From NCBI GenBank assembly GCA_027355945.1, contig DAIEHA010000005.1, positions 3,067 to 67,066 on the forward strand: DNA of 64,000 nucleotides. Reading direction: 5' to 3'. This stretch comes from Candidatus Parcubacteria bacterium. GTDB taxonomy: Bacteria > Patescibacteriota > Minisyncoccia > UBA6257 > 2-01-FULL-56-20. Below, one piece after another: positions 37,719-64,000 of the stretch. Both the position numbers and the translations under genes were made by a program. Below the pieces are notes generated by a model. That model had not been told where the DNA came from. It made no database searches and saw only the letters and a program-made list of their open reading frames with translations. Each line of letters begins with the position of its first letter. Position 1 is the stretch's first letter.

Positions 37719-37802
37719 TGCGTCGGGTAGGATTCGAACCTACGTAGCCCAATGGGCGACAGATTTACAGTCTGTTGCGATTGACCGCTCCGCCACCGAC
37801 GC
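37719..37802 (-). tRNA. tRNA-Tyr (anticodon GTA), long variable arm
   Basis: The reverse complement folds as a cloverleaf: acceptor GCGTCGG/CCGACGC, anticodon stem ACAGA/TCTGT with loop CTGTAAA, long variable arm, and a GGTTCGAATCC T-arm. Confidence 0.8.
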
Positions 37803-45272: not shown

Positions 45273-45343
45273 TGCCGGGTCGTCTAATGGTAGGACTCCA
45301 GGTTCTGGCCCTGGGTATCTTGGTTCGAATCCAGGCCCGGCAG
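45273..45343 (+). tRNA. tRNA-Gln (anticodon CTG)
   Basis: Acceptor TGCCGGG/CCCGGCA (U1-A72 as in bacterial tRNA-Gln), anticodon stem CCAGG/CCTGG with loop TTCTGGC, and a TTCGAAT T-loop. Confidence 0.75.
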
Positions 45344-48946: not shown

Positions 48947-51757
48947 TTACGGAAGCACGGGCATCGGGATGTCGAGCGACGGGCACTGGAGCATATTGAT
49001 CAGGCGCTGCGTCGTTTTATACACGTATCCCGTTGCGGCATTCTCATTCGGGAGGCCATAGGCAACCCATGGCGCAAGGATCTCCGTCGAGTACTTCGTC
49101 TGCAACTGCCTCACGGCCGCCTCGGATCTCGGTCCGTAATATCCGGTGAGAGGGATATTGAGACCCAGCTCCGCATTGAGGAATGCCTGGAGCTTCTTCA
49201 CTTCCGCCGGATCGTTCTGCGCCCCTCTCTGCCACATCGGAGCGATATAGCTCGAAAGATAATAGCCGCAGCTCGTGCTCGCACCAAGGACCTCGCCCTG
49301 CTCCGCAGGAAGCGCCGTCCCCGTTGACGATGGCATTCCCGGGGACACGACTTCTGTCGTTGTCGTGCCAAGCACTATGCCCGCGCCGAACCCGCCTCCG
49401 CCTCCCGCACCACCGGACGAGAATGGATTACCGCCACCGGCAGCAACGCTCACTACGGGGCCCGTGACGCCTCCTCCCGCCGTCCCGGCACTCCGCACTG
49501 CAATGCCTACCGATGCCGCGTTATCGAGTGGCGTGGGATCGATGAAACTGCCGAGCGTACTCGAGACGCTCACGCCGTTCATCAAGGTCCTTCCCTCCTG
49601 CCCGCCCCCAACCGTCATAGCGACGCTCATCGTGGCGGTCGCATGGGGGTCGAGCATCCCGATATCCCATTCGATGCCTCCGTTCACAAGCGATATCGTT
49701 CCTTGGGAGGATGTGGCCGCATTATAGCCGATGCCCTCATCCCAGAAATCTTTCGCGACCACGAAGGTCCCTTGGGCGCTGCCGTTGTTCACGACCTCTA
49801 TCGAATAGGTCACCGTGCCGCCTACGGATGGATCCGCGCGATCGACCATCTTTCTCACTGCGAAGTCCGGTGCGCCCATCGCCCCGCCCGCAACCGTCAC
49901 CGTGGTGCTCGCAACGTCATTCGAGGGATTTGGATCGATGCCCTCGCGCAGGTCCACCGAAGCGCGCACCGTGTTCACGATGGTCGTGGAAGGCTCTGCG
50001 GAAGGATCCACAAGGACCTCCATATCGAGATATGCCGTGGAGCTCGCGAGGAGACCTCCGATCGTCCATATCCCCGTGGAGCTCGCGTACGATCCTGCCG
50101 AGGTCGTCACTCCCACGAGGGAGATCGCGTCCGGCAGCGTATCAGCAGCGATCACTCCGTTCGCCGCATCGGGGCCGAGATTGGCCACTGTGATGCGGTA
50201 ATGGAAGGTCCCGCCCGCCGTGACCGTTGTGGCATCCGCCTCCTTTGCCACAGAAATGTCCGAGGAAGGCGACGGCAGCTGCGCATCGAACGATGCCGTC
50301 ACCGCGGTCGGTGCGGCGATCGCAAAGGAGCACGAGGTCGAGGTGCTCCCGTCGCATACATCACCGCTCCATCCCGTGAATGCGGAGGCATCGCGGGGCG
50401 TTGCCGTGAGCGTCACCATGGATCCCGTCACGAAATTATCCGTACAGGTTCCCGATGTGCATGCATCGATCCCCGGAGGATCGCTCGATACGCTTCCGTT
50501 CCCCGTTCCCGCGATCGTCACGTCGAGCATACTGTCCCCCGGCACGGGCCTCTCATTGAACACCGCGATCACGGTGCTTGCCGTCGTCACGGAATCGATC
50601 ACGAACGCGCACGAGGTCGAGGTCGAGGCCGCACAAGGGCCGGCGCTCCACGCGATGAAACTCGCATCGGCTGCCGGTGACGCCATGAGCGTCTCGATGG
50701 TTCCGATGCGGAACGGATAGGCGCAGGTCGAAGCGCCCGGATCGGCCGAATCACAATGAATGGTCCCCGATGCATCGGAGATCACCCCGTTCCCCGTACC
50801 TCCTGCAGCCGATACCGATAGCGCATACGTCCGTATCCCGAACGCCGCACTCACTTCCGCGTCCTCCGAAAGCACAAGCGTGCATGCCGAAGATGTCCCC
50901 GACGATGCGCACGCGCCTCCCCAGCCCTCGAAGGTCGATGTGGGCGCGTCAGGCGCTGCCGTCAACACCACCGTCGCACCATCCGAGAAATGGGCGTCGC
51001 AAATCGATCCCTCCGATCCGCAGGATATCCCCGGAGGATCGCTCGTGACCACCCCCGTCCCTTCGCCCGTCGTGCTCACCGTGAGCGTGTTCCGGGCGCC
51101 GTGCACGAACCACGCCGTGATCGCATGATCGGCGGTCACGTCATCGAAGGCGTAGGAATCCCCCGCAGGGACCGGGATCCCGTCCACCGTAAGGGCGTTC
51201 AGCACCTCTCCGTTCCCGGGAGTGATCGTGAATGTCTGCGTGCCGTGATATGCCACCGTGGTCGTGCCGAGCGGCAGAATGGCGCCCTCGCCGTTCACCG
51301 ACGCCACGATCCTCGGATCCACCGTCACGCTCGTCGTGGCAGCAGCATATTGAAGATTGTCCGGACTCACCTCGCCGTGATACACGAGTGCGGTAATCTC
51401 ATAGTTTCCCGGAGCGGCGTACGCATGCGACGCCGACCACTCAGCGGAAAATGCCTTGGGAGATGCCGTCGAGGATACGATCGCGAAATCCGCAAGCGGG
51501 ATCGTACTGCTTCCATCCCCCCACCCCGTGACTGCCGCATGCACAGCCCTCAGGGACCCCATATAGGGATTCGCGCCCGCGCTCCCCGTGAGGTCCAGGG
51601 TGCGGGACGATTCGTCGAACGATGCCGTCGTGATGTCTATGGAATAGCTCACGGGCACCCCTCCTTCTTCCGCCAAAACGGAAATAGAAGGCAGGGCGAT
51701 GCTCCCCACGGACATCGTCCCCCATGCCAATAGTTCCAACGTGATATTTTTTTTCAT
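48947..51757 (-). CDS. Very large (936 aa) secreted surface protein: InlB-B-like Cys repeats + DUF11-like domains + C-terminal peptidoglycan-binding-like domain
   Basis: Signal peptide. Repeated GTG.VTSDPPGI.CGS..C...F..G..VTLTA.P.A.S.F.GWGGAC units. A DUF11-like ISVAKEADATTVTAGGTFHYRITVANLGPD stretch. C-terminus ...AAVRQLQTKYSTEILAPW resembles a PG_binding_1 domain. Confidence 0.6.
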   Translation of the reverse strand: MKKNITLELLAWGTMSVGSIALPSISVLAEEGGVPVSYSIDITTASFDESSRTLDLTGSAGANPYMGSLRAVHAAVTGWGDGSSTIPLADFAIVSSTASPKAFSAEWSASHAYAAPGNYEITALVYHGEVSPDNLQYAAATTSVTVDPRIVASVNGEGAILPLGTTTVAYHGTQTFTITPGNGEVLNALTVDGIPVPAGDSYAFDDVTADHAITAWFVHGARNTLTVSTTGEGTGVVTSDPPGISCGSEGSICDAHFSDGATVVLTAAPDAPTSTFEGWGGACASSGTSSACTLVLSEDAEVSAAFGIRTYALSVSAAGGTGNGVISDASGTIHCDSADPGASTCAYPFRIGTIETLMASPAADASFIAWSAGPCAASTSTSCAFVIDSVTTASTVIAVFNERPVPGDSMLDVTIAGTGNGSVSSDPPGIDACTSGTCTDNFVTGSMVTLTATPRDASAFTGWSGDVCDGSTSTSCSFAIAAPTAVTASFDAQLPSPSSDISVAKEADATTVTAGGTFHYRITVANLGPDAANGVIAADTLPDAISLVGVTTSAGSYASSTGIWTIGGLLASSTAYLDMEVLVDPSAEPSTTIVNTVRASVDLREGIDPNPSNDVASTTVTVAGGAMGAPDFAVRKMVDRADPSVGGTVTYSIEVVNNGSAQGTFVVAKDFWDEGIGYNAATSSQGTISLVNGGIEWDIGMLDPHATATMSVAMTVGGGQEGRTLMNGVSVSSTLGSFIDPTPLDNAASVGIAVRSAGTAGGGVTGPVVSVAAGGGNPFSSGGAGGGGGFGAGIVLGTTTTEVVSPGMPSSTGTALPAEQGEVLGASTSCGYYLSSYIAPMWQRGAQNDPAEVKKLQAFLNAELGLNIPLTGYYGPRSEAAVRQLQTKYSTEILAPWVAYGLPNENAATGYVYKTTQRLINMLQCPSLDIPMPVLP

Positions 51758-51933
51758 TGTTGTCTGTTACTTTTTATCCGCGCACACCCGCACGGTTACC
51801 GACCCCATCCATATACCTAATACAATCCATGCCAAGGGGTATTACAGGACGATGCCCTCGGCGGAAGATCGCAAAAAGGCCCTCGTAAGGGCCTTACTTC
51901 CTCCTAATATCCTCGAACGGGTCCTTCCCGAGT

Positions 51934-52218
51934 TCAGCGGAACCCCATAGGAGCGTCCGGCGATGTTGCGGCGGATACTTTGCCGTGCGCATCCTCGTAG
52001 ACCTTCATCTGGGTTTGGAGCGCTTCGATGATCCTCTTCATATGTCCCGGACTCGTCACAAGGCGCGCGATCACCTGTCCCGAAGGAGGATTCATGCTCA
52101 CAAAGAGGAAATCCATCATGAATTCCTCGGAGGTGCTCGCCACCGCCATGAAGTTCGTATACCGTCCCTTCATTACTTCGTCGTCGGCCTTTATCGGCAA
52201 TGTGTTTTTTGTTTCCAT
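51934..52218 (-). CDS. DUF3467-family small protein
   Basis: GRYTNFMAVASTSEEFMMDFLFV resembles the DUF3467 core. Confidence 0.45.
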   Translation of the reverse strand: METKNTLPIKADDEVMKGRYTNFMAVASTSEEFMMDFLFVSMNPPSGQVIARLVTSPGHMKRIIEALQTQMKVYEDAHGKVSAATSPDAPMGFR

Positions 52219-52291
52219 GTGCTCAGTATAGCAAAACGCGCCGCAGATATGATGCGGACGTATAGGATGCGGATCCGGGTAGTATCGGGGA

Positions 52292-53446
52292 TCAGGCTCC
52301 CGGACGGGCGGCGATCGAATAATGATATGGGAATCCCTTCCCTCCTTTCACCTCCCTTACCTCGAATCCGGCGTCCGTGAGGCGCGCGGCGGCCTCTTTC
52401 GGTGAATACACATGGTCCGCGGGCGGTCCTACGGGACGATCCACCTCGGCGTTCCAGTCGATGAAGAGCGCCTCGCCATTCGCGGAGAGGAGATCCTTCA
52501 GCTCGTGAAGCGCCGCATCGCCGAGCTCATGCAGGACGTTCAACGCAAGGATGCGGTCCGCGGCATTCTTATAATTCCCGATCCCGCCGCCGGATACGAT
52601 CGCGATGTTTCCCAGCATTTTTGATTCCGGTTTTGCCCGCATGCGCTCGAGCATCGCGGACTGCTCGTCGAACGCGACGACCGCCGCATCGGGACGCCGC
52701 TGCGCGATCGCGATCGCATATGTTCCCGTACCTGTCCCGAAATCGATGATCGTCCCTCCGTGCGGAATGTCGAGCGCGGCGATCACGTCGTCCGGAGGCA
52801 CATATGCGAAACGCGAGGCATCGTCGAGGCCGGTCGCATGGGAGGGGTTGAACCGCTCATGCTGCTTCGCCCCATGCCGATCATCCGATAGCATCGCCGC
52901 ATCGTCGGCGTCGCATGCGAGAGGCTGCTCTATCTTCCGCGCGGTGAGCAGGATGCCGAACGCCATGAATCCCACGCCAAGGAACCCGAATTCCTGTCCC
53001 TTGAGGGGAAGGATATCGAGGAAGCCCGCGGTCGCACCCGCGCCAAGGAATGCCGATGCGACCACCGTGCCGCACGATGCGCATCCGACGCCGAGCAGGC
53101 CGAGAATGATGCCTCCGATCCCGATGCCCGCGGAACGCTCGAGCCGGAAGCGCGTCCTCAGATAGAATGCAAGGAATGCGGCATCCACCGCGAACAGTAC
53201 GGCGAGCGTCACCGTGAGTGTGCGCGAGAGCGGGGTGAAATTGGTATCAAGCGCGGAAAGCGACGATGCGAGTATCCCGAACTTCTCGCCGAAGGAGAGA
53301 TATCCGGAGGTGAGGGTGCTCCCGATGAACGAAAGATTGGGAAGCCATATCGCCGCAAGGAGCAGGAGGAGGCCGGCGACCACCCCTATGAGCGGATACC
53401 ATGGCCTGCTCAGAACCTTTTTGGATGCGGATATCAGTTCCTTCAT
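52292..53446 (-). CDS. Fusion protein: N-terminal polytopic membrane domain with intramembrane GVGCASCG motif + C-terminal class I SAM-dependent methyltransferase
   Basis: About 170 aa with 4-5 TM including GIGIGGIILGLLGVGCASCGTVVASAFLGAG. Then a Rossmann MT motif I (TIIDFGTGTGTYAIAIAQ) and post-I acidic residues. Confidence 0.55.
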   Translation of the reverse strand: MKELISASKKVLSRPWYPLIGVVAGLLLLLAAIWLPNLSFIGSTLTSGYLSFGEKFGILASSLSALDTNFTPLSRTLTVTLAVLFAVDAAFLAFYLRTRFRLERSAGIGIGGIILGLLGVGCASCGTVVASAFLGAGATAGFLDILPLKGQEFGFLGVGFMAFGILLTARKIEQPLACDADDAAMLSDDRHGAKQHERFNPSHATGLDDASRFAYVPPDDVIAALDIPHGGTIIDFGTGTGTYAIAIAQRRPDAAVVAFDEQSAMLERMRAKPESKMLGNIAIVSGGGIGNYKNAADRILALNVLHELGDAALHELKDLLSANGEALFIDWNAEVDRPVGPPADHVYSPKEAAARLTDAGFEVREVKGGKGFPYHYSIAARPGA

Positions 53447-53466
53447 GGGGTCGCGCGGCGATATGG

Positions 53467-54138
53467 TCAGGATCGTGCAAGATCCGCATTTATGATCTGC
53501 TCGAAGAATCCCACGGGCTGCGCCCCTGAGAATGCCTGCCCGTCGAGCCAGAACCCGGGCGTTCCCTGGATGCCGAGGCGCTGTGCATCAAGATAATCGG
53601 CATTTATGTCGGCTTGGTATGAGGAACCGTTCTTGTTTATGAGCGCAACGATATTCGTCGCATCGAGTCCGGGAACCGACTTCGTGATCGCAATGAGGTT
53701 CGCAGGACTCGCCCATCCGGACCCCTCCGCACCCTGCGCGGAAAAGACCGCATGCTGCCATGCATAATAGTTCGACGGCGAAGCCTCCCACACGGCGTGC
53801 GACATGCCCGCGGCCGTCGCAGAATCGGACCCGAGGAACACAAAGTCCTTGAATACGATGCGGAGCTTCCCCGTGTTCACATATTCCGCAACAAGCGAGG
53901 GAAGCGTCTGCGTATCGAATTTGCTGCAGAACGGACACTGGAAATCGCGCCAGTAATAAAGGGTGAGGGGCGCGGAAGGATTCCCGATATAGGGGTCGTG
54001 CTCCGCAGAGGGCGCGGCTACCCCGTTTTCCGCATTCGCGGAACCCCCATGGGAAGCGATCCCTACGTAGACGATCGCTCCCGCGACGATCACCGCGGAT
54101 GCAAGTATTGAAATGGCAAGGCTTCGCTGTTGGTTCAT
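53467..54138 (-). CDS. DsbA-family thiol:disulfide oxidoreductase (membrane-anchored)
   Basis: TM anchor followed by ...YYWRDFQCPFCSKFD... (CPFC active site) and a DsbA-type helical insertion. Confidence 0.7.
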   Translation of the reverse strand: MNQQRSLAISILASAVIVAGAIVYVGIASHGGSANAENGVAAPSAEHDPYIGNPSAPLTLYYWRDFQCPFCSKFDTQTLPSLVAEYVNTGKLRIVFKDFVFLGSDSATAAGMSHAVWEASPSNYYAWQHAVFSAQGAEGSGWASPANLIAITKSVPGLDATNIVALINKNGSSYQADINADYLDAQRLGIQGTPGFWLDGQAFSGAQPVGFFEQIINADLARS

Positions 54139-54233
54139 ATACGTTCCTTCACCGTTCTTATTTCCATGATCCCCCTTCCTTGAGGGGAGGTTCCCCGCAT
54201 CCGGAGAACCTCCCATGCACCGAACCCGCGCGC

Positions 54234-54431
54234 CTATGACCCCTTCTTCGTCGAGATATTGAGGAGCGAATAGAGCCCGCACCAGCCGATGGCACCCGTC
54301 GCGAGCGGCAAAATGCCGATCAATCCCCACCATGACTGGTAGAGATATCCCACCGCAAGGATGACGATACCGAGGACGATGCGGATCACGCGATCCGCCG
54401 TTCCCATGTTGTGCTTCATGTTATTTTCCAA
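54234..54431 (-). CDS. DUF2892 (YgaP C-terminal-like) small membrane protein
   Basis: ADRVIRIVLGIVILAVGYLYQSWWGLIGILPLATGAIGWCGLYSLL matches the DUF2892 pattern. Confidence 0.6.
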   Translation of the reverse strand: MENNMKHNMGTADRVIRIVLGIVILAVGYLYQSWWGLIGILPLATGAIGWCGLYSLLNISTKKGS

Positions 54432-55044
54432 TGCTCAGCAATTGATTCAAGCGACCTTTATCGAACCCGAGTATCAGGTCGAAATCGCCGCTGTCGTAGA
54501 TCACCTCGGTCTGAGGCACGCCGGTCTGGCCCGACCTGCGGATCATCTCCTCGGCAGCCTTTCGATCGGTGTCCACCATCACGAGATCGAACTTCACGTT
54601 GTTCTTCTCAAGGTATTCCTTCTCCATTTTGCAATAAGGGCAGGTGGCCGTCGAATAAAGCTTGACCTTCTCGATCTTCGGCTCGCCGACGCCGGCCGCC
54701 TCGTTCACGAGACCCTTCAGATCATTTTCCATCTCGGCGATCGTCGCCTCAAGGGCTTCCATCGCCTGCGTCCCCGAGAGAAGCTGGGGGTTCATGATGC
54801 CGACCGATGCCGCACCATCCTTCTCCTCCACCATGACGACCATCGGCACGAGGCCAAGCAGCATGCGATCCTCCTTGAGGATCGTCTCCGTCCTTTTTCC
54901 ATCGAGGAATTGGATGAGTACCCCTCCTCCGGGAAGCTTCGTCTCCCCCGTGACCGCCATGTTCCTTTTCTTGAGCCCCTCCTTCACTGCCGCAACCGCC
55001 TCGTCCGCAGAGCGCTTCGTGTTGCGGAAATATGCGATGTTCAT
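54421..55044 (-). CDS. DUF302 domain fused to glutaredoxin (NrdH/Grx-like, CPYC)
   Basis: An N-terminal DUF302-like region of about 120 aa, then KVKLYSTATCPYCKMEKEYL...GQTGVPQTEV. Confidence 0.55.
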   Translation of the reverse strand: MNIAYFRNTKRSADEAVAAVKEGLKKRNMAVTGETKLPGGGVLIQFLDGKRTETILKEDRMLLGLVPMVVMVEEKDGAASVGIMNPQLLSGTQAMEALEATIAEMENDLKGLVNEAAGVGEPKIEKVKLYSTATCPYCKMEKEYLEKNNVKFDLVMVDTDRKAAEEMIRRSGQTGVPQTEVIYDSGDFDLILGFDKGRLNQLLSIGK

Positions 55045-55058
55045 TGTCTTTGTTATTT

Positions 55059-55307
55059 TTATTTGACCACCGAAACGACTTTTTTTACGAATGGGATCTT
55101 CTCTTTCCGTATCCTGTAATATTTATCCCTGCCTTTCTTCGATTCCTCGACGATCCCCTTCTCCCGCAGCACCGAGAGGTGATAGGAAAGAAGCGTCTTC
55201 TTTATCCTTAGATATTCCCGGAGATCGCAGCCCGTCGCCGCATCACAGCCGAGAAGCTCCTGGAGGATCGCGATCCTTTTCTCATTGAACAGCCAGAGGT
55301 TCTTCAT
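55059..55307 (-). CDS. ArsR/SmtB-family transcriptional regulator
   Basis: NEKRIAILQELLGCDAATGCDLREYLRIKKTLLSYHLSVLREKGIVEE winged HTH. Start set at MKNLWLF. Confidence 0.7.
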   Translation of the reverse strand: MKNLWLFNEKRIAILQELLGCDAATGCDLREYLRIKKTLLSYHLSVLREKGIVEESKKGRDKYYRIRKEKIPFVKKVVSVVK

Positions 55308-55387
55308 CGCGTATAGTTTAATATATATTGAACTATATTCCGACGTGAAAGGACTGTCAAGCGCGGGCCCCCGGGACATCACTCAGG

Positions 55388-56476
55388 CTATCCCTTGCGT
55401 CCCTTGAACCGCGCCGCAAGCTCCCGCGCGATGCGCGCGTTCATATTCTTCCCCGCAAGCACGAGATAATTGTAGTCGGATGGATATCCCGCGAGCTCCA
55501 TGAATCCCACCCCTTTGACGCTCCGGCCCTGCACACGACCCGAGATCCTCACCGGACCCTCCCAATAATTGATCGCCCCGAATACCATCTCCCCGTCGTC
55601 CATCATGGCCGATGCATGGAGTTGCGCATCCCATTCGGGAATGCGGATCGTCCATTCGAGGGGATATTCCGCCTTTGTTTCCTTGCTCTTCGAGCGCCTC
55701 TCTCCCGGAAGAAACTCGGCGTGGACGGCGTGCCGCGACGCCCCCCGCGGACCCAGCATGTCCGCAATATGGTCCTTCCCCGTTCCATCATCATATTCCA
55801 CGCACATGATATCGGTCCCTCCCTCGAGCTGCATGGAGAACCACGTCCATCTGTCGTTCGCATACGGCGTATCCGCCCATTGATGGTCCATCCAGGCACG
55901 ACCCTCCACCGGGACCCATGCGCCGTCCCCGTCCTTCACCATGCCGGTCGCTGCGAGGTCTGTAAGCGAGTAATAGAAACTTTCCCTGCCGCGCACGGCG
56001 ATGAACCCTTTCCCTCCCTGCAGCATGGGTTTTTTTCTCGAAATGAGCGTAAGGTCGAGCGTCTCGGTCTTCAGATGGAATGTCCCCGGCACGGTCTCTT
56101 CCATCTCATGGACGACGAAACCTCCCGCGAACGAAAGCGGGTCGATATAGTTCGCATAGAGGCGCGGACGGGAGAATGTATCCCGCGACCCCATGGAGAC
56201 ATTCTGAATGTCCTTGAACGCCTTTTGTGCGCCGATGTCCGCAAGGACCGAATGCGCAAAGAGCGCGTAGGGCCCTCCGCCCGCACCAAAGACGTTCCGC
56301 AGATACGGGATGTTCGCCCGACGAACGTCCGCCCGAAAAAGGCAGTCCATGAAGGAAAACCTCCTTCCCCGGGGGCCCCGCAGATATCCATTGAAATACC
56401 ACCATTCGATGACGGCGTCATGCGGCAGCATATCTTCGGGGAACGTGATGGGGCGCGGCCTCATGGATGTATCCAT
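55388..56476 (-). CDS. CrtC/AttH-like lipocalin-type hydrolase/hydratase family protein
   Basis: HDAVIEWWYFNGYL matches the conserved EWWY motif of the CrtC / AttH family. Confidence 0.5.
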   Translation of the reverse strand: MDTSMRPRPITFPEDMLPHDAVIEWWYFNGYLRGPRGRRFSFMDCLFRADVRRANIPYLRNVFGAGGGPYALFAHSVLADIGAQKAFKDIQNVSMGSRDTFSRPRLYANYIDPLSFAGGFVVHEMEETVPGTFHLKTETLDLTLISRKKPMLQGGKGFIAVRGRESFYYSLTDLAATGMVKDGDGAWVPVEGRAWMDHQWADTPYANDRWTWFSMQLEGGTDIMCVEYDDGTGKDHIADMLGPRGASRHAVHAEFLPGERRSKSKETKAEYPLEWTIRIPEWDAQLHASAMMDDGEMVFGAINYWEGPVRISGRVQGRSVKGVGFMELAGYPSDYNYLVLAGKNMNARIARELAARFKGRKG

Positions 56477-63580: not shown

Positions 63581-63695
63581 GATGTCGGCACATCCTACTT
63601 TCCCCATAAAATGAGTATCATCGGATCGAGGCGCTTTCACTTCTCTGTTCGGAATGGGAAGAGGTGGGGGCACGCCCGAATAAAGCACCGACATC
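63581..63695 (-). rRNA. rrf: 5S ribosomal RNA
   Basis: The reverse complement reads GATGTCGGTGC...CCCATTCCGAACAGAGAAGTGAAAGCGCC...GAAAGTAGGATGTGCCGACATC, with a terminal helix and conserved 5S motifs. Confidence 0.75.
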
Positions 63696-63837
63696 AAAAA
63701 GCCGTTTTCCGGTTCACAGAGGGACGCTATGCGTCTCTGGGAATCAAAAAAGTCCTTTTTGAGTAGATCGCTGTTCCGTTCTGTTTTGAGGGATCGAGAT
63801 CTCCCGCAAAACAGAACGGAACAACGTATGCAAGTCA

Positions 63838-64000
<163 letters not shown>

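What the first reader, a model, noticed from the sequence alone, without database searches (positions are those of the whole stretch)
52292..55382. ArsR-headed thiol/sulfur-redox operon ending in a membrane CxxC domain fused to a SAM methyltransferase
What the sequence shows:
- Six co-directional, tightly packed minus-strand genes: ArsR/SmtB regulator, DUF302-glutaredoxin fusion, DUF2892 membrane protein, DsbA-like CPFC oxidoreductase, a polytopic membrane domain with intramembrane GVGCASCG fused to a class I SAM methyltransferase, and DUF3467.

What established knowledge says:
- ArsR-family regulator plus a DUF2892-containing protein is the E. coli ygaV-ygaP (sulfide/thiol-stress) arrangement.
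- DUF302 recurs in ArsR-regulated metal(loid)/sulfur loci.

What is unusual, and what I infer:
- I do not recognise the membrane-domain/methyltransferase fusion as a described architecture.
- The Gly-rich intramembrane Cys motif loosely recalls the GGC(A/S)xG motif of YeeE/YedE (TsuA) thiosulfate/sulfur transporters and membrane thiol-disulfide carriers.
- My inference is a module that imports or handles a reactive S/Se/metalloid species and methylates it (volatilisation or detoxification). The glutaredoxin and DsbA would supply redox support.
Basis: partly seen in the sequence, partly recalled or inferred. Interest (0 to 1): 0.78.

Follow-up and report, generated by a model that had tools for sequence, protein, structure and literature searches.

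The report
DsbA partner membrane protein fused to methyltransferase
The operon is real: its core is a DsbA-like thiol enzyme paired with an undescribed four-helix membrane protein that is widespread in Patescibacteria, mostly in copper-defence gene islands, and only this small clade has fused that protein to a methyltransferase of unknown substrate.

Summary
Observation confirmed. Six minus-strand genes lie where stated, and the 384-aa membrane/methyltransferase (MTase) ORF is a genuine fusion. The same protein sits on six contigs from several samples. Two orthologues (82% and 67% identity) keep the fusion, with dN/dS of 0.11-0.19 in both halves.

The fusion is very rare: 3 clusters among 5.8 billion. 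Its N-terminal domain (here "NDOM") is not rare:
- It is a stand-alone protein of about 180 aa, with 1,647 representatives at 50% identity.
- It has no Pfam, NCBIfam or PDB match.
- Its invariant motifs are WLPN, TNFT, GCASCG and LPxxGxEF, plus a cytoplasmic Cys after the last helix.

In about 58 of 80 genomes NDOM lies directly downstream of a CPFC DsbA-like gene. In 48 of 80 a copper P-type ATPase, multicopper oxidase, CsoR or YtkA gene lies within 6 kb.

A sister genome carries the same ArsR / DUF302-glutaredoxin / YgaP-TM / DsbA / NDOM operon with no MTase. The MTase is therefore a recent add-on.

A conserved 26-bp palindrome overlaps the arsR promoter.

Best reading: an ArsR-repressed envelope thiol-relay pair, analogous to Scs, BdbDC or Mer systems. 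The direction of the relay and the MTase substrate are unresolved. The YeeE-like and metalloid-methylation ideas are not supported.

The parts
55332..55360 (-). Sigma-70-type promoter of the operon: TTGACA, 17-nt spacer, TATAGT
   Evidence: 11 of 12 consensus matches. The -35 TTGAC and the -10 are conserved in L001 and L004.
55312..55337 (.). Candidate ArsR operator: 26-bp imperfect palindrome TATAGTTCAATATATATTAAACTATA. It overlaps the -10 box and lies 4 nt upstream of the arsR ATG.
   Evidence: 13-nt arms, 92% complementary. Unique in the window, with 0 expected in shuffles. A 25-nt block is invariant in the two orthologous promoters while the flanks diverge.
55059..55307 (-). ArsR/SmtB-family repressor, 82 aa, with two conserved Cys (C21, C27 in GCDAATGCDL) in the helix preceding the recognition helix
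   Evidence: Pfam HTH_5 E 4e-8. NCBIfam HTH_metalloreg 54.1 bits against a cut-off of 55. Both Cys are invariant in 3 orthologues.
54421..55044 (-). Cytoplasmic DUF302-like domain fused to a glutaredoxin (CPYC)
   Evidence: Glutaredoxin E 6e-15. DUF302 is sub-threshold here but recorded in most of 86 homologous clusters.
54234..54419 (-). YgaP-like two-helix membrane protein (DUF2892), 61 aa, GWCG motif, no rhodanese domain
   Evidence: Pfam PF11127 E 1.4e-22. Start is 1 nt after the Grx stop. 61-64 aa in relatives.
53467..54138 (-). Membrane-anchored DsbA-like thiol:disulfide oxidoreductase (Thioredoxin_4 / DSBA), CPFC active site, GTP cis-Pro loop
   Evidence: Pfam E 1e-24 and 9e-14. C68-P-F-C71 and G192-T-P194 are invariant in 12 orthologues.
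52913..53446 (-). NDOM: residues 1-178 of the fusion. A four-helix membrane domain of an undescribed family, with N-in/C-in topology.
   Evidence: Invariant WLPN, K55, TNFT, G-C122-A-S-C125-G, LPxxGxEF and C178. 1,647 representative homologues, nearly all about 180 aa. No Pfam, NCBIfam or PDB match. Positive-inside rule.
53072..53083 (-). Codons of the intramembrane C122-A-S-C125 motif in helix 3
   Evidence: Read.
52913..52915 (-). Codon of invariant Cys178. It lies just after the last helix (KKIxxPxxC), on the cytoplasmic side, 10 residues before the MTase core.
52292..52882 (-). Class I SAM-dependent methyltransferase domain (residues 189-384) of a tight family of unknown substrate
   Evidence: Methyltransf_25/23/12/31 hits. 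Family motifs RHGA[KR]Q, DFGTGTG, NVLHE, DW and RPVGPPxDHxY. AF2 pLDDT 92. Best fold match is 3dh0.
51934..52218 (-). DUF3467 protein. It is adjacent and probably co-transcribed here, but is not a conserved member of the module.
   Evidence: Pfam E 4e-16. Present after the fusion in the window and in the L001 lineage, and replaced by a 434-aa gene in L005.
51873..51895 (-). Terminator-like hairpin AAGGCCCT-TACG-AGGGCCTT followed by a T run, 38 nt after the DUF3467 stop
   Evidence: Read directly. The consensus scanner did not list it.

Best explanation
The locus is an ArsR/SmtB-repressed operon that joins two modules.

Module 1 is cytoplasmic and membrane-associated: a DUF302-glutaredoxin (CPYC) and a YgaP-like TM protein.

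Module 2 is a two-gene envelope thiol-relay pair. It consists of a membrane-anchored DsbA-like oxidoreductase (CPFC) outside the cell and its dedicated membrane partner, NDOM. NDOM is a four-helix protein of a previously undescribed family, with a CxxC buried in helix 3 and an invariant cytoplasmic Cys just after helix 4.

I infer that thiol-disulfide exchange runs between the DsbA-like CPFC, the NDOM CxxC and Cys178. This would link the extracytoplasmic oxidoreductase to the cytoplasm, where the co-operonic glutaredoxin is the obvious partner. The role would be the one played elsewhere by DsbB/BdbC/VKOR (oxidising) or DsbD/CcdA/ScsB (reducing).

Across Patescibacteria this pair is mainly deployed in copper-defence islands. 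Its physiological job is therefore probably to protect or repair envelope thiols under copper or oxidative stress, as the Scs system does.

In this small clade a cytoplasmic small-molecule-type SAM methyltransferase was fused 10 residues after Cys178. I infer that it acts on something handled at that cytoplasmic face, such as a low-molecular-weight thiol or a soft-metal adduct. Its substrate is unknown.

Shown: gene content, the fusion, family conservation, gene adjacency, copper context, promoter and operator.
Inferred: the relay itself, its direction, and any role of the MTase.
For: 1. NDOM is directly downstream of, and co-directional with, a DsbA-like gene in about 58 of 80 species-level genomes. 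The gap is mostly <=12 bp, and CPFC is present in nearly all.
2. NDOM has three invariant Cys: CxxC in helix 3 and C178 on the cytoplasmic side. All its other invariant polar residues are in the outer loops.
3. 48 of 80 loci carry a copper P-type ATPase with HMBD, a multicopper oxidase, CsoR or YtkA within 6 kb. BlaI/CopY-M56, DUF411 and DsbD_TM + thioredoxin also recur.
4. The same five-gene operon occurs with an unfused NDOM and no MTase in GCA_027459395.1.
5. Both halves of the fusion are under purifying selection. The MTase is fused at the end predicted to be cytoplasmic.
6. A promoter and a conserved palindromic operator lie upstream of arsR.
7. A Cu-induced DsbA-like protein with a membrane redox partner has a precedent in ScsC/ScsB (PMC10907172).
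Against: - No biochemical data exist, and the relay is inferred from adjacency and Cys conservation only.
- NDOM lacks a second extracytoplasmic Cys pair of the kind that DsbB and VKOR use to reach DsbA. Its CxxC is buried in a helix, and the AF2 model is least confident there (pLDDT 55-67).
- About 11 loci with intact upstream DNA have NDOM without an adjacent DsbA.
- About 10 islands also carry a classical DsbD_TM + thioredoxin reducing pair. This argues against NDOM being just another reductant conduit.
- CPR bacteria are generally described as lacking respiratory capacity (PMC5220378 abstract), so the oxidant for a DsbB-like role is unclear.
- This window itself holds no copper genes.
Confidence: 0.55

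Rival explanations
1. The membrane domain imports a reactive S/Se/metalloid species by thiol ligand exchange (DsbA-like CPFC to CxxC to Cys178). The fused methyltransferase then methylates it for detoxification or volatilisation, with Grx and DsbA as redox support.
For: - The MTase is fused 10 residues after the invariant cytoplasmic Cys, and the fusion is kept under selection.
- The regulator is an ArsR-type protein with Cys in the alpha3-equivalent position.
- 50 of 92 stand-alone MTase homologues carry a His-rich tail exactly where Cys178 sits in the fusion, which hints at metal binding next to the active-site lid.
- One rhodanese-fused MTase homologue lies within 3 kb of YgaP_TM, ICMT and MerB genes.
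Against: - The MTase domain has no Cys, so it is unlike ArsM. The ArsM model scores 15 bits against a cut-off of 510.
- Its nearest folds are small-molecule C- and O-methyltransferases.
- NDOM shows no similarity to YeeE/TsuA or to any transporter.
- The family's context is copper, which is not biomethylated.
- The same operon functions without the MTase in a sister genome.
- Contexts of stand-alone MTase homologues are incoherent.
Confidence: 0.15
2. A soft-metal (Cu(I)/Ag(I)) handling pair with Mer-like or CopCD-like logic. The DsbA-like protein binds Cu(I) outside the cell, as ScsC does. NDOM passes it through its CxxC to the cytoplasmic Cys, for sequestration, sensing or loading of the multicopper oxidase. 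No net electron transfer is involved.
For: - Strong linkage with CopA-like ATPases, multicopper oxidase, CsoR, YtkA and DUF411.
- The layout of an intramembrane Cys pair plus a cytoplasmic Cys resembles MerT (my own knowledge of MerT, not tested here).
- ScsC/ScsB are described as Cu+-binding proteins (PMC10907172 abstract).
- Some NDOM proteins carry an extra helix and a Cys-rich outer domain.
Against: - There are no conserved Met or His in the NDOM outer loops, unlike typical Cu(I) transporters.
- The partner keeps the full thioredoxin catalytic signature (CPFC + cis-Pro), which is typical of redox enzymes.
- The window and the closest relatives (L007-L012) lack any copper gene nearby.
- There is no sequence or fold relation to MerT, MerF or CopD.
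Confidence: 0.15
3. The fusion is mechanistically incidental. A horizontally acquired small-molecule methyltransferase landed downstream of NDOM and lost its intergenic region. It gains only membrane tethering or co-regulation, and its chemistry is unrelated to the thiol relay. This is compatible with the best explanation for the rest of the operon.
For: - The fusion occurs in only 3 clusters of 5.8 billion, against 1,647 stand-alone NDOM representatives.
- The linker is short and fast-evolving.
- The nearest MTase relatives (50-60% identity) are in Terriglobia and Dormibacteraeota, not Patescibacteria.
- A sister genome lacks the MTase altogether.
- MTase homologues are fused to varied partners: OsmC, rhodanese, EamA.
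Against: - The fusion has persisted through synonymous divergence of dS >= 0.66 with dN/dS of about 0.13-0.18 in the MTase half.
- The other fusion partners of the MTase family (OsmC, rhodanese) are themselves thiol or peroxide chemistry, which suggests a real functional link.
Confidence: 0.25

Closest known systems
ScsC/ScsB, the suppressor-of-copper-sensitivity system of Salmonella, Proteus and Caulobacter
   Same: A DsbA-like thioredoxin-fold protein is paired with a dedicated membrane redox partner. The pair is genetically tied to copper stress (PMC10907172; PMC3322552 listed).
   Different: ScsB is a DsbD-family protein with a DsbD_TM core and periplasmic domains. NDOM has no DsbD_TM signature, only about 180 aa, one CxxC in a single helix, and a cytoplasmic Cys. 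No homology is detectable.
BdbD/BdbC (Bacillus) and DsbA/VKOR (Actinobacteria), the oxidative folding pairs of monoderm bacteria
   Same: A membrane-anchored Thioredoxin_4/DsbA-type protein is encoded next to a small polytopic membrane partner carrying a CxxC. The gene-pair layout is the same (the layout of the known systems is from my own knowledge).
   Different: There is no sequence or fold similarity to DsbB or VKOR and no second extracytoplasmic Cys pair. No quinone-binding features are identifiable. The hosts are generally described as lacking respiratory capacity (PMC5220378).
MerP/MerT mercury uptake relay
   Same: The logic is an external CxxC protein, an intramembrane Cys pair and a cytoplasmic Cys that hands over to a cytoplasmic enzyme. 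An ArsR or MerR-type repressor is upstream.
   Different: There is no homology. The external partner is a thioredoxin fold rather than a ferredoxin-like HMA domain. There is no MerA or MerB, and the context is copper rather than mercury.
E. coli ygaV-ygaP and BigR/SqrR sulfide-responsive operons
   Same: An ArsR-family repressor lies next to a DUF2892 (YgaP-like TM) protein. YgaV is a sulfide-responsive SqrR/BigR homologue (PMC9774250).
   Different: The regulator here has no C-terminal sensing Cys and scores far below the BigR model (29 against 155 bits). The DUF2892 protein has no rhodanese domain.
PDB 3dh0, an Aquifex aeolicus SAM-dependent methyltransferase of unknown function
   Same: It is the closest solved relative of the MTase half (phmmer E 2.6e-15; Foldseek E 7e-17, TM 0.78-0.85).
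   Different: It is a stand-alone soluble protein with about 30% identity and no assigned substrate, so it gives no functional transfer.

Membership tests
ArsR/SmtB metalloregulators | Winged-helix HTH_5 domain | tested here: met
   PF01022 33.4 bits against a cut-off of 22. NCBIfam HTH_metalloreg 54.1 bits, just under its cut-off of 55.
ArsR/SmtB metalloregulators | Imperfect 12-2-12-type inverted-repeat operator overlapping its own promoter | tested here: met
   26-bp palindrome at 55312-55337 overlapping the -10 box. It is unique in the window and conserved in orthologous promoters. Binding was not tested.
BigR/SqrR/YgaV persulfide sensors | Cys pair, one before the recognition helix and one in the C-terminal helix; equivalog-level similarity | tested here: not met
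   NF040642 29.2 bits against a cut-off of 155. The only Cys are C21 and C27, and there is none C-terminal.
DsbA / Thioredoxin_4 oxidoreductases | Thioredoxin fold with a CxxC active site and a cis-Pro loop; extracytoplasmic location | tested here: met
   PF13462 87.8 bits and PF01323 52.2 bits. CPFC and GTP are invariant. There is an N-terminal hydrophobic anchor.
DsbB / VKOR (for NDOM) | Family HMM or fold match; two extracytoplasmic Cys pairs | tested here: not met
DsbD / CcdA / ScsB (for NDOM) | DsbD_TM domain with one Cys in each of two pseudo-symmetric helices | tested here: not met
   No PF02683 hit for NDOM. True DsbD_TM proteins are separate genes in 10 of the islands.
YeeE/YedE (TsuA) sulfur transporters (for NDOM) | Sulf_transp domain, about 9 helices, Cys in GGCxxG re-entrant helices | tested here: not met
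   No PF04143 hit at E<=5. No PDB sequence or fold hit. NDOM has only four membrane helices.
Class I SAM-dependent methyltransferases | Rossmann-like fold with a GxGxG SAM motif and an acidic residue after strand 2 | tested here: met
   Methyltransf_25 35.1 bits against a cut-off of 27. DFGTGTG and D84 are invariant. AF2 pLDDT 92, with Foldseek probability 1.0 to many class I MTases.
ArsM arsenite methyltransferases | Conserved As(III)-binding Cys residues; equivalog-level similarity | tested here: not met
   There is no Cys in residues 179-384. NF041537 scores 15 bits against a cut-off of 510.
Glutaredoxin | Grx domain with a CPYC active site | tested here: met
   PF00462 55.6 bits. CPYC is read.
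DUF302 | PF03625 match | tested here: inconclusive
   15.7 bits against a cut-off of 23 in this protein. Pairwise BLAST to a bona fide DUF302 is not significant. Most homologues at 36-90% identity carry a recorded PF03625 hit.
YgaP-like TM (DUF2892) | PF11127 match | tested here: met
   80 bits against a cut-off of 25.3.

The most novel reading that the evidence does not exclude
NDOM defines a structurally unprecedented family of small membrane thiol-relay proteins. This family would be the standard partner of DsbA-like oxidoreductases throughout Patescibacteria/CPR. It would do the job of DsbB/VKOR or DsbD in organisms that largely lack quinones and respiratory chains, using an intramembrane CxxC and a cytoplasmic Cys, and it would be wired into copper defence. 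The MTase fusion in this clade would then be a Rosetta-stone hint that the cytoplasmic end of the relay handles a methylatable small thiol or metal-thiolate.
Probability: 0.35. Interest if true: 0.8.

Novelty: new variant of a known kind. Interest (0 to 1): 0.62.

Why it matters
How Patescibacteria manage extracytoplasmic cysteines is essentially unstudied. My searches found no paper linking DsbA, DsbB or VKOR to this group. These organisms are tiny episymbionts that are generally described as lacking respiratory capacity.

NDOM is a conserved partner of DsbA-like proteins in many Patescibacterial genomes, has 1,647 representative sequences, and has no database family and no structural relative. 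It is therefore a concrete, testable candidate for the missing membrane component of their disulfide and copper-stress machinery.

The rare methyltransferase fusion and the sister genome without it form a natural comparison. Together they can be used to ask what passes through the cytoplasmic Cys.

If NDOM instead proves to be a thiol-based metal conduit, it would be a new transporter type.

Tried and rejected
- **'Long NDOM paralogues' next to NDOM.** These were a single-linkage artefact caused by a chimeric ORF in L042. They are multicopper oxidases.
- **Genomic context of stand-alone MTase homologues as a clue to substrate.** The contexts were incoherent.
- **A full-length fusion model.** MAFFT misplaced the N-terminal parts of the MTase homologues onto NDOM in two attempts. 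The two halves were therefore modelled separately, and no inter-domain geometry is claimed.
- **Copper genes in the window itself.** None were found.
- **The hairpin between ygaP-TM and dsbA as a regulatory element.** It is not conserved in the orthologues.
- **Pairwise test of the DUF302 assignment.** Not significant. The assignment was settled only indirectly through homologues.
- **Literature searches for a described equivalent.** They found nothing specific.

Full report
**1. What is in the sequence**

The region 51934-55382 holds six tightly packed minus-strand genes.

| Gene | Coordinates | Key evidence |
|---|---|---|
| ArsR/SmtB regulator, 82 aa | 55059-55307 | HTH_5, E 4e-8 |
| Glutaredoxin fusion, 207 aa, CPYC | 54421-55044 | PF00462, E 6e-15 |
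| YgaP-like TM protein, 61 aa | 54234-54419 | PF11127, E 1e-22 |
| DsbA-like / Thioredoxin_4, membrane-anchored, CPFC | 53467-54138 | E 1e-24 |
| 384-aa fusion ORF | 52292-53446 | C-terminal half matches class I SAM methyltransferase (MTase) models |
| DUF3467 protein | 51934-52218 | Pfam E 4e-16 |

The N-terminal half of the Grx protein reaches DUF302 only below threshold (15.7 bits against 23). However, most of its 86 homologous clusters carry recorded DUF302 + Glutaredoxin hits, and some sources name them that way. I therefore accept the DUF302-Grx architecture.

Residues 1-178 of the fusion ORF match no Pfam or NCBIfam model.

**2. The fusion is real and rare**

- The identical 384-aa protein is encoded on six contigs from ENA, NCBI and Logan assemblies of several samples.
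- Among 5.8 billion protein clusters, only three cover the full length: the window's own protein and orthologues at 82% and 67% identity.
- Both orthologues sit in the same order: ArsR, DUF302-Grx, YgaP_TM, DsbA, fusion.
- Codon comparison gives dN/dS of 0.11-0.19 for the membrane half and 0.13-0.18 for the MTase half. The 10-residue linker (179-188) is much less constrained.
- DUF3467 follows the fusion in two of the three lineages only.

**3. Regulation**

A near-consensus promoter, TTGACA-17-TATAGT, lies at 55360-55332.

Its -10 box is the left end of a 26-bp palindrome at 55312-55337. The arms are 13 nt and 92% complementary. The palindrome is unique in the window, with none expected by chance.

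A 25-nt block containing it is invariant in the promoters of both orthologues, although the surrounding intergenic DNA has diverged.

The repressor's two Cys (C21 and C27, in GCDAATGCDL) are invariant. There is no C-terminal Cys, and the BigR model scores 29 against a cut-off of 155. The repressor is therefore not a BigR/SqrR/YgaV-type persulfide sensor (YgaV: PMC9774250). Its effector is unknown.

**4. The membrane domain (NDOM) is a large undescribed family**

Searched alone, residues 1-180 retrieve more than 120 stand-alone proteins of about 180 aa. All are 'hypothetical', none has a Pfam domain, and where named they come from Patescibacteria.

A profile search of 1.84 billion representatives finds 1,647 hits at E<=1e-3 and 961 at E<=1e-10. 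Nearly all are about 180 aa. The only fused protein among the 150 best hits is the 82% orthologue.

The family has striking invariant motifs:
- W34-L-P36-N37
- K55
- T68-N-F70
- G-C122-A-S-C125-G
- L146-P-x-x-G-x-E152-F
- C178, within KKIxxPxxC at the very end of the stand-alone proteins

Charge distribution supports four helices with both termini in the cytoplasm. This agrees with the fusion of a SAM-dependent enzyme at the C-terminus. The CxxC is inside helix 3. The other invariant residues lie in the two outer loops. C178 is on the cytoplasmic side.

An AF2 model has pLDDT 81 and pTM 0.76, and is weakest around helix 3. It has no meaningful structural neighbour:
- Foldseek finds nothing at E<=1e-3.
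- A PDB profile search finds nothing at E<=10.

NDOM is therefore not detectably related to DsbB, VKOR, CcdA/DsbD, MerT/MerF or YeeE/TsuA.

**5. Context across 80 genomes**

A scan of GTDB species representatives gave 80 loci.

In about 58 of them a DsbA-like gene, with CPFC in nearly all, ends immediately upstream of NDOM on the same strand. The gap is usually <=12 bp. Several of the remaining loci are cut at the contig end. About 11 have upstream DNA but no DsbA gene.

Neighbour clustering and Pfam scans show the pair embedded in copper-homeostasis islands:

| Neighbour | Loci (of 80) |
|---|---|
| P-type ATPase with HMBD domain | 36 |
| M56 (BlaR1-like) peptidase | 21 |
| Multicopper oxidase | 20 |
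| BlaI/CopY repressor | 19 |
| YtkA | 13 |
| DsbD_TM, often preceded by an anchored thioredoxin | 10 |
| CsoR | 8 |
| DUF302 | 8 |
| ICMT/PEMT-like membrane methyltransferase | 6 |
| Rhodanese | 6 |
| DUF411 (CopG-like) | not counted by this search; its cluster has 3 members |

A common order is BlaI, M56, DsbA, NDOM, second DsbA, multicopper oxidase, YtkA.

At least one of ATPase, multicopper oxidase, CsoR or YtkA lies within 6 kb in 48 of 80 loci. Among loci of at least 8 kb the figure is 35 of 54.

The window itself has none of these genes, and neither do its closest relatives L007-L012.

**6. The methyltransferase is a recent add-on**

GCA_027459395.1 carries the same ArsR / DUF302-Grx / YgaP_TM / DsbA / NDOM operon in the same chromosomal neighbourhood as the 67% orthologue. 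Its NDOM is a stand-alone 182-aa protein (73% identity), and no MTase follows it.

None of the other loci has an MTase of this family.

The MTase half belongs to a tight family of 211-225 aa proteins. Members are 50-60% identical to it and come mainly from Terriglobia, Dormibacteraeota and Binataceae. They are occasionally fused to OsmC, rhodanese or EamA domains.

The invariant motifs of this family are RHGA[KR]Q..RF[DN]P, DFGTGTG, NVLHE, DW and RPVGPPxDHxY.

In 50 of 92 homologues, at least four His lie within the 25 residues before RHGA[KR]Q. This is exactly where Cys178 and the linker sit in the fusion.

The domain has no Cys of its own. It models confidently (pLDDT 92). Its best match is the uncharacterised Aquifex protein 3dh0. 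The next matches are small-molecule C- and O-methyltransferases: CouO, NovO, MfnG, CysG/BelI and SgvM.

The contexts of stand-alone homologues give no consistent clue.

**7. Interpretation**

The conserved unit is the pair of DsbA-like protein and NDOM. The simplest reading is a thiol-disulfide relay between an extracytoplasmic oxidoreductase and a dedicated membrane partner. It would be functionally analogous to BdbD/BdbC, DsbA/VKOR or ScsC/ScsB, but built from an unrelated membrane protein.

The copper context parallels the Cu-induced Scs system (PMC10907172).

The direction of the relay is unresolved:
- For a reducing conduit: the invariant cytoplasmic Cys and, in this clade, a co-operonic cytoplasmic glutaredoxin.
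- For an oxidising partner: a separate DsbD_TM + thioredoxin pair co-resides in about 10 islands, and the gene layout is BdbDC-like. In that case the oxidant is unclear, because these organisms are generally described as lacking respiratory capacity (PMC5220378).

A Mer-like soft-metal relay remains possible.

The MTase's position next to Cys178, and the His-rich tails of its relatives, suggest that it acts on something bound at that cytoplasmic face. That is inference only.

**8.

The thiol-redox operon, the rarity of the fusion, the synteny and the operator hold.
- The YeeE resemblance and the ygaVP-type sensor are not supported.
- The reading of the DsbA-like protein as mere redox support is not supported; it is half of the conserved core pair.
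- Metalloid or sulfur methylation has no positive support.

**9. Novelty**

Neither the NDOM family nor its pairing with DsbA-like proteins appears in Pfam (2025 copy), NCBIfam (2026), the PDB or the papers I could search.

I rate it a new variant of a known kind of system: an envelope thiol oxidoreductase plus a membrane partner. The MTase fusion is a rare, lineage-specific elaboration.

Noticed in passing
Proteins P0004-P0098 (stand-alone homologues of the MTase half, residues 189-384 of window 52292-53446): 50 of 92 homologues have a His-rich N-terminal tail (4-11 His in 25 residues) immediately before the conserved RHGA[KR]Q motif. This suggests metal binding next to the active-site lid of this uncharacterised MTase family.
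   Followed up: partly
L013-L049 and others, e.g. L026:3752-9003, L036, L040: There is a recurrent Patescibacterial copper island. Its order is BlaI/CopY-like repressor, M56 (BlaR1-like) peptidase, DsbA-like, NDOM, second DsbA-like, multicopper oxidase, YtkA. A CopA-like ATPase with HMBD domain, CsoR, DUF411 and SurA_N_3 lie nearby.
   Followed up: partly
L014:5165-6316 and L016:5998-7143: Here NDOM is fused not to an MTase but to a fifth membrane helix and an extracytoplasmic Cys-rich domain of about 170 aa (CCSPMN ... PCCCKCWRW ... DGCGG). That domain has no Pfam match.
   Followed up: partly
L096:4176-6549 (GCA_027459395.1): A sister genome has the same five-gene operon with an unfused 182-aa NDOM and no MTase. 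A gene for a 1,177-aa protein follows instead.
   Followed up: yes
L017, L024, L028, L030, L038 (e.g. L038:1045-1707): ICMT/PEMT-type membrane methyltransferases recur in 6 of 80 NDOM islands. A second, unrelated methyltransferase type is thus linked to the same neighbourhood.
   Followed up: no
window 54186-54213 (minus strand): A 12-bp GC-rich hairpin (GGGAGGUUCUCC / GGGGAACCUCCC) lies in the 95-nt gap between ygaP-TM and dsbA. The gap's fold has a z-score of -2.6. The hairpin is only partly shared with L001, and the gap is much shorter in L004 and L096, so it is probably not a conserved element.
   Followed up: yes
window 48947-51757 (minus strand): A 936-aa surface protein lies just downstream. 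It has two DUF11 repeats, an InlB B-repeat-like domain and a C-terminal peptidoglycan-binding domain, and it is conserved next to the operon in relatives.
   Followed up: no
window 55388-56476 (minus strand): An AttH/CrtC-type double lipocalin gene ends 80 nt upstream of the arsR start codon (55307), with the arsR promoter in that gap. It is conserved in L001 but not in L004 or L096, so it is not part of the module.
   Followed up: partly
window 63583-64000, 37719-37802, 45273-45343: There is a 5S rRNA and the 3' end of a 23S rRNA at the window edge, plus two tRNA genes.
   Followed up: no
L009, L014, L015, L017, L026 and about 20 other TPA_asm loci: About two dozen loci with typical Patescibacteria-type NDOM islands come from records titled 'uncultured Gammaproteobacteria', 'Pseudomonadales' or 'Cytophagia'. 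The record titles look unreliable. I did not test the taxonomy.
   Followed up: no
L097-L099:3655-4624 and L100:3728-4633: The DUF302-Grx fusion forms its own small modules elsewhere. It pairs with YgaP_TM in a Chloroflexi genome, and with ArsR next to a P-type ATPase in another MAG.
   Followed up: partly
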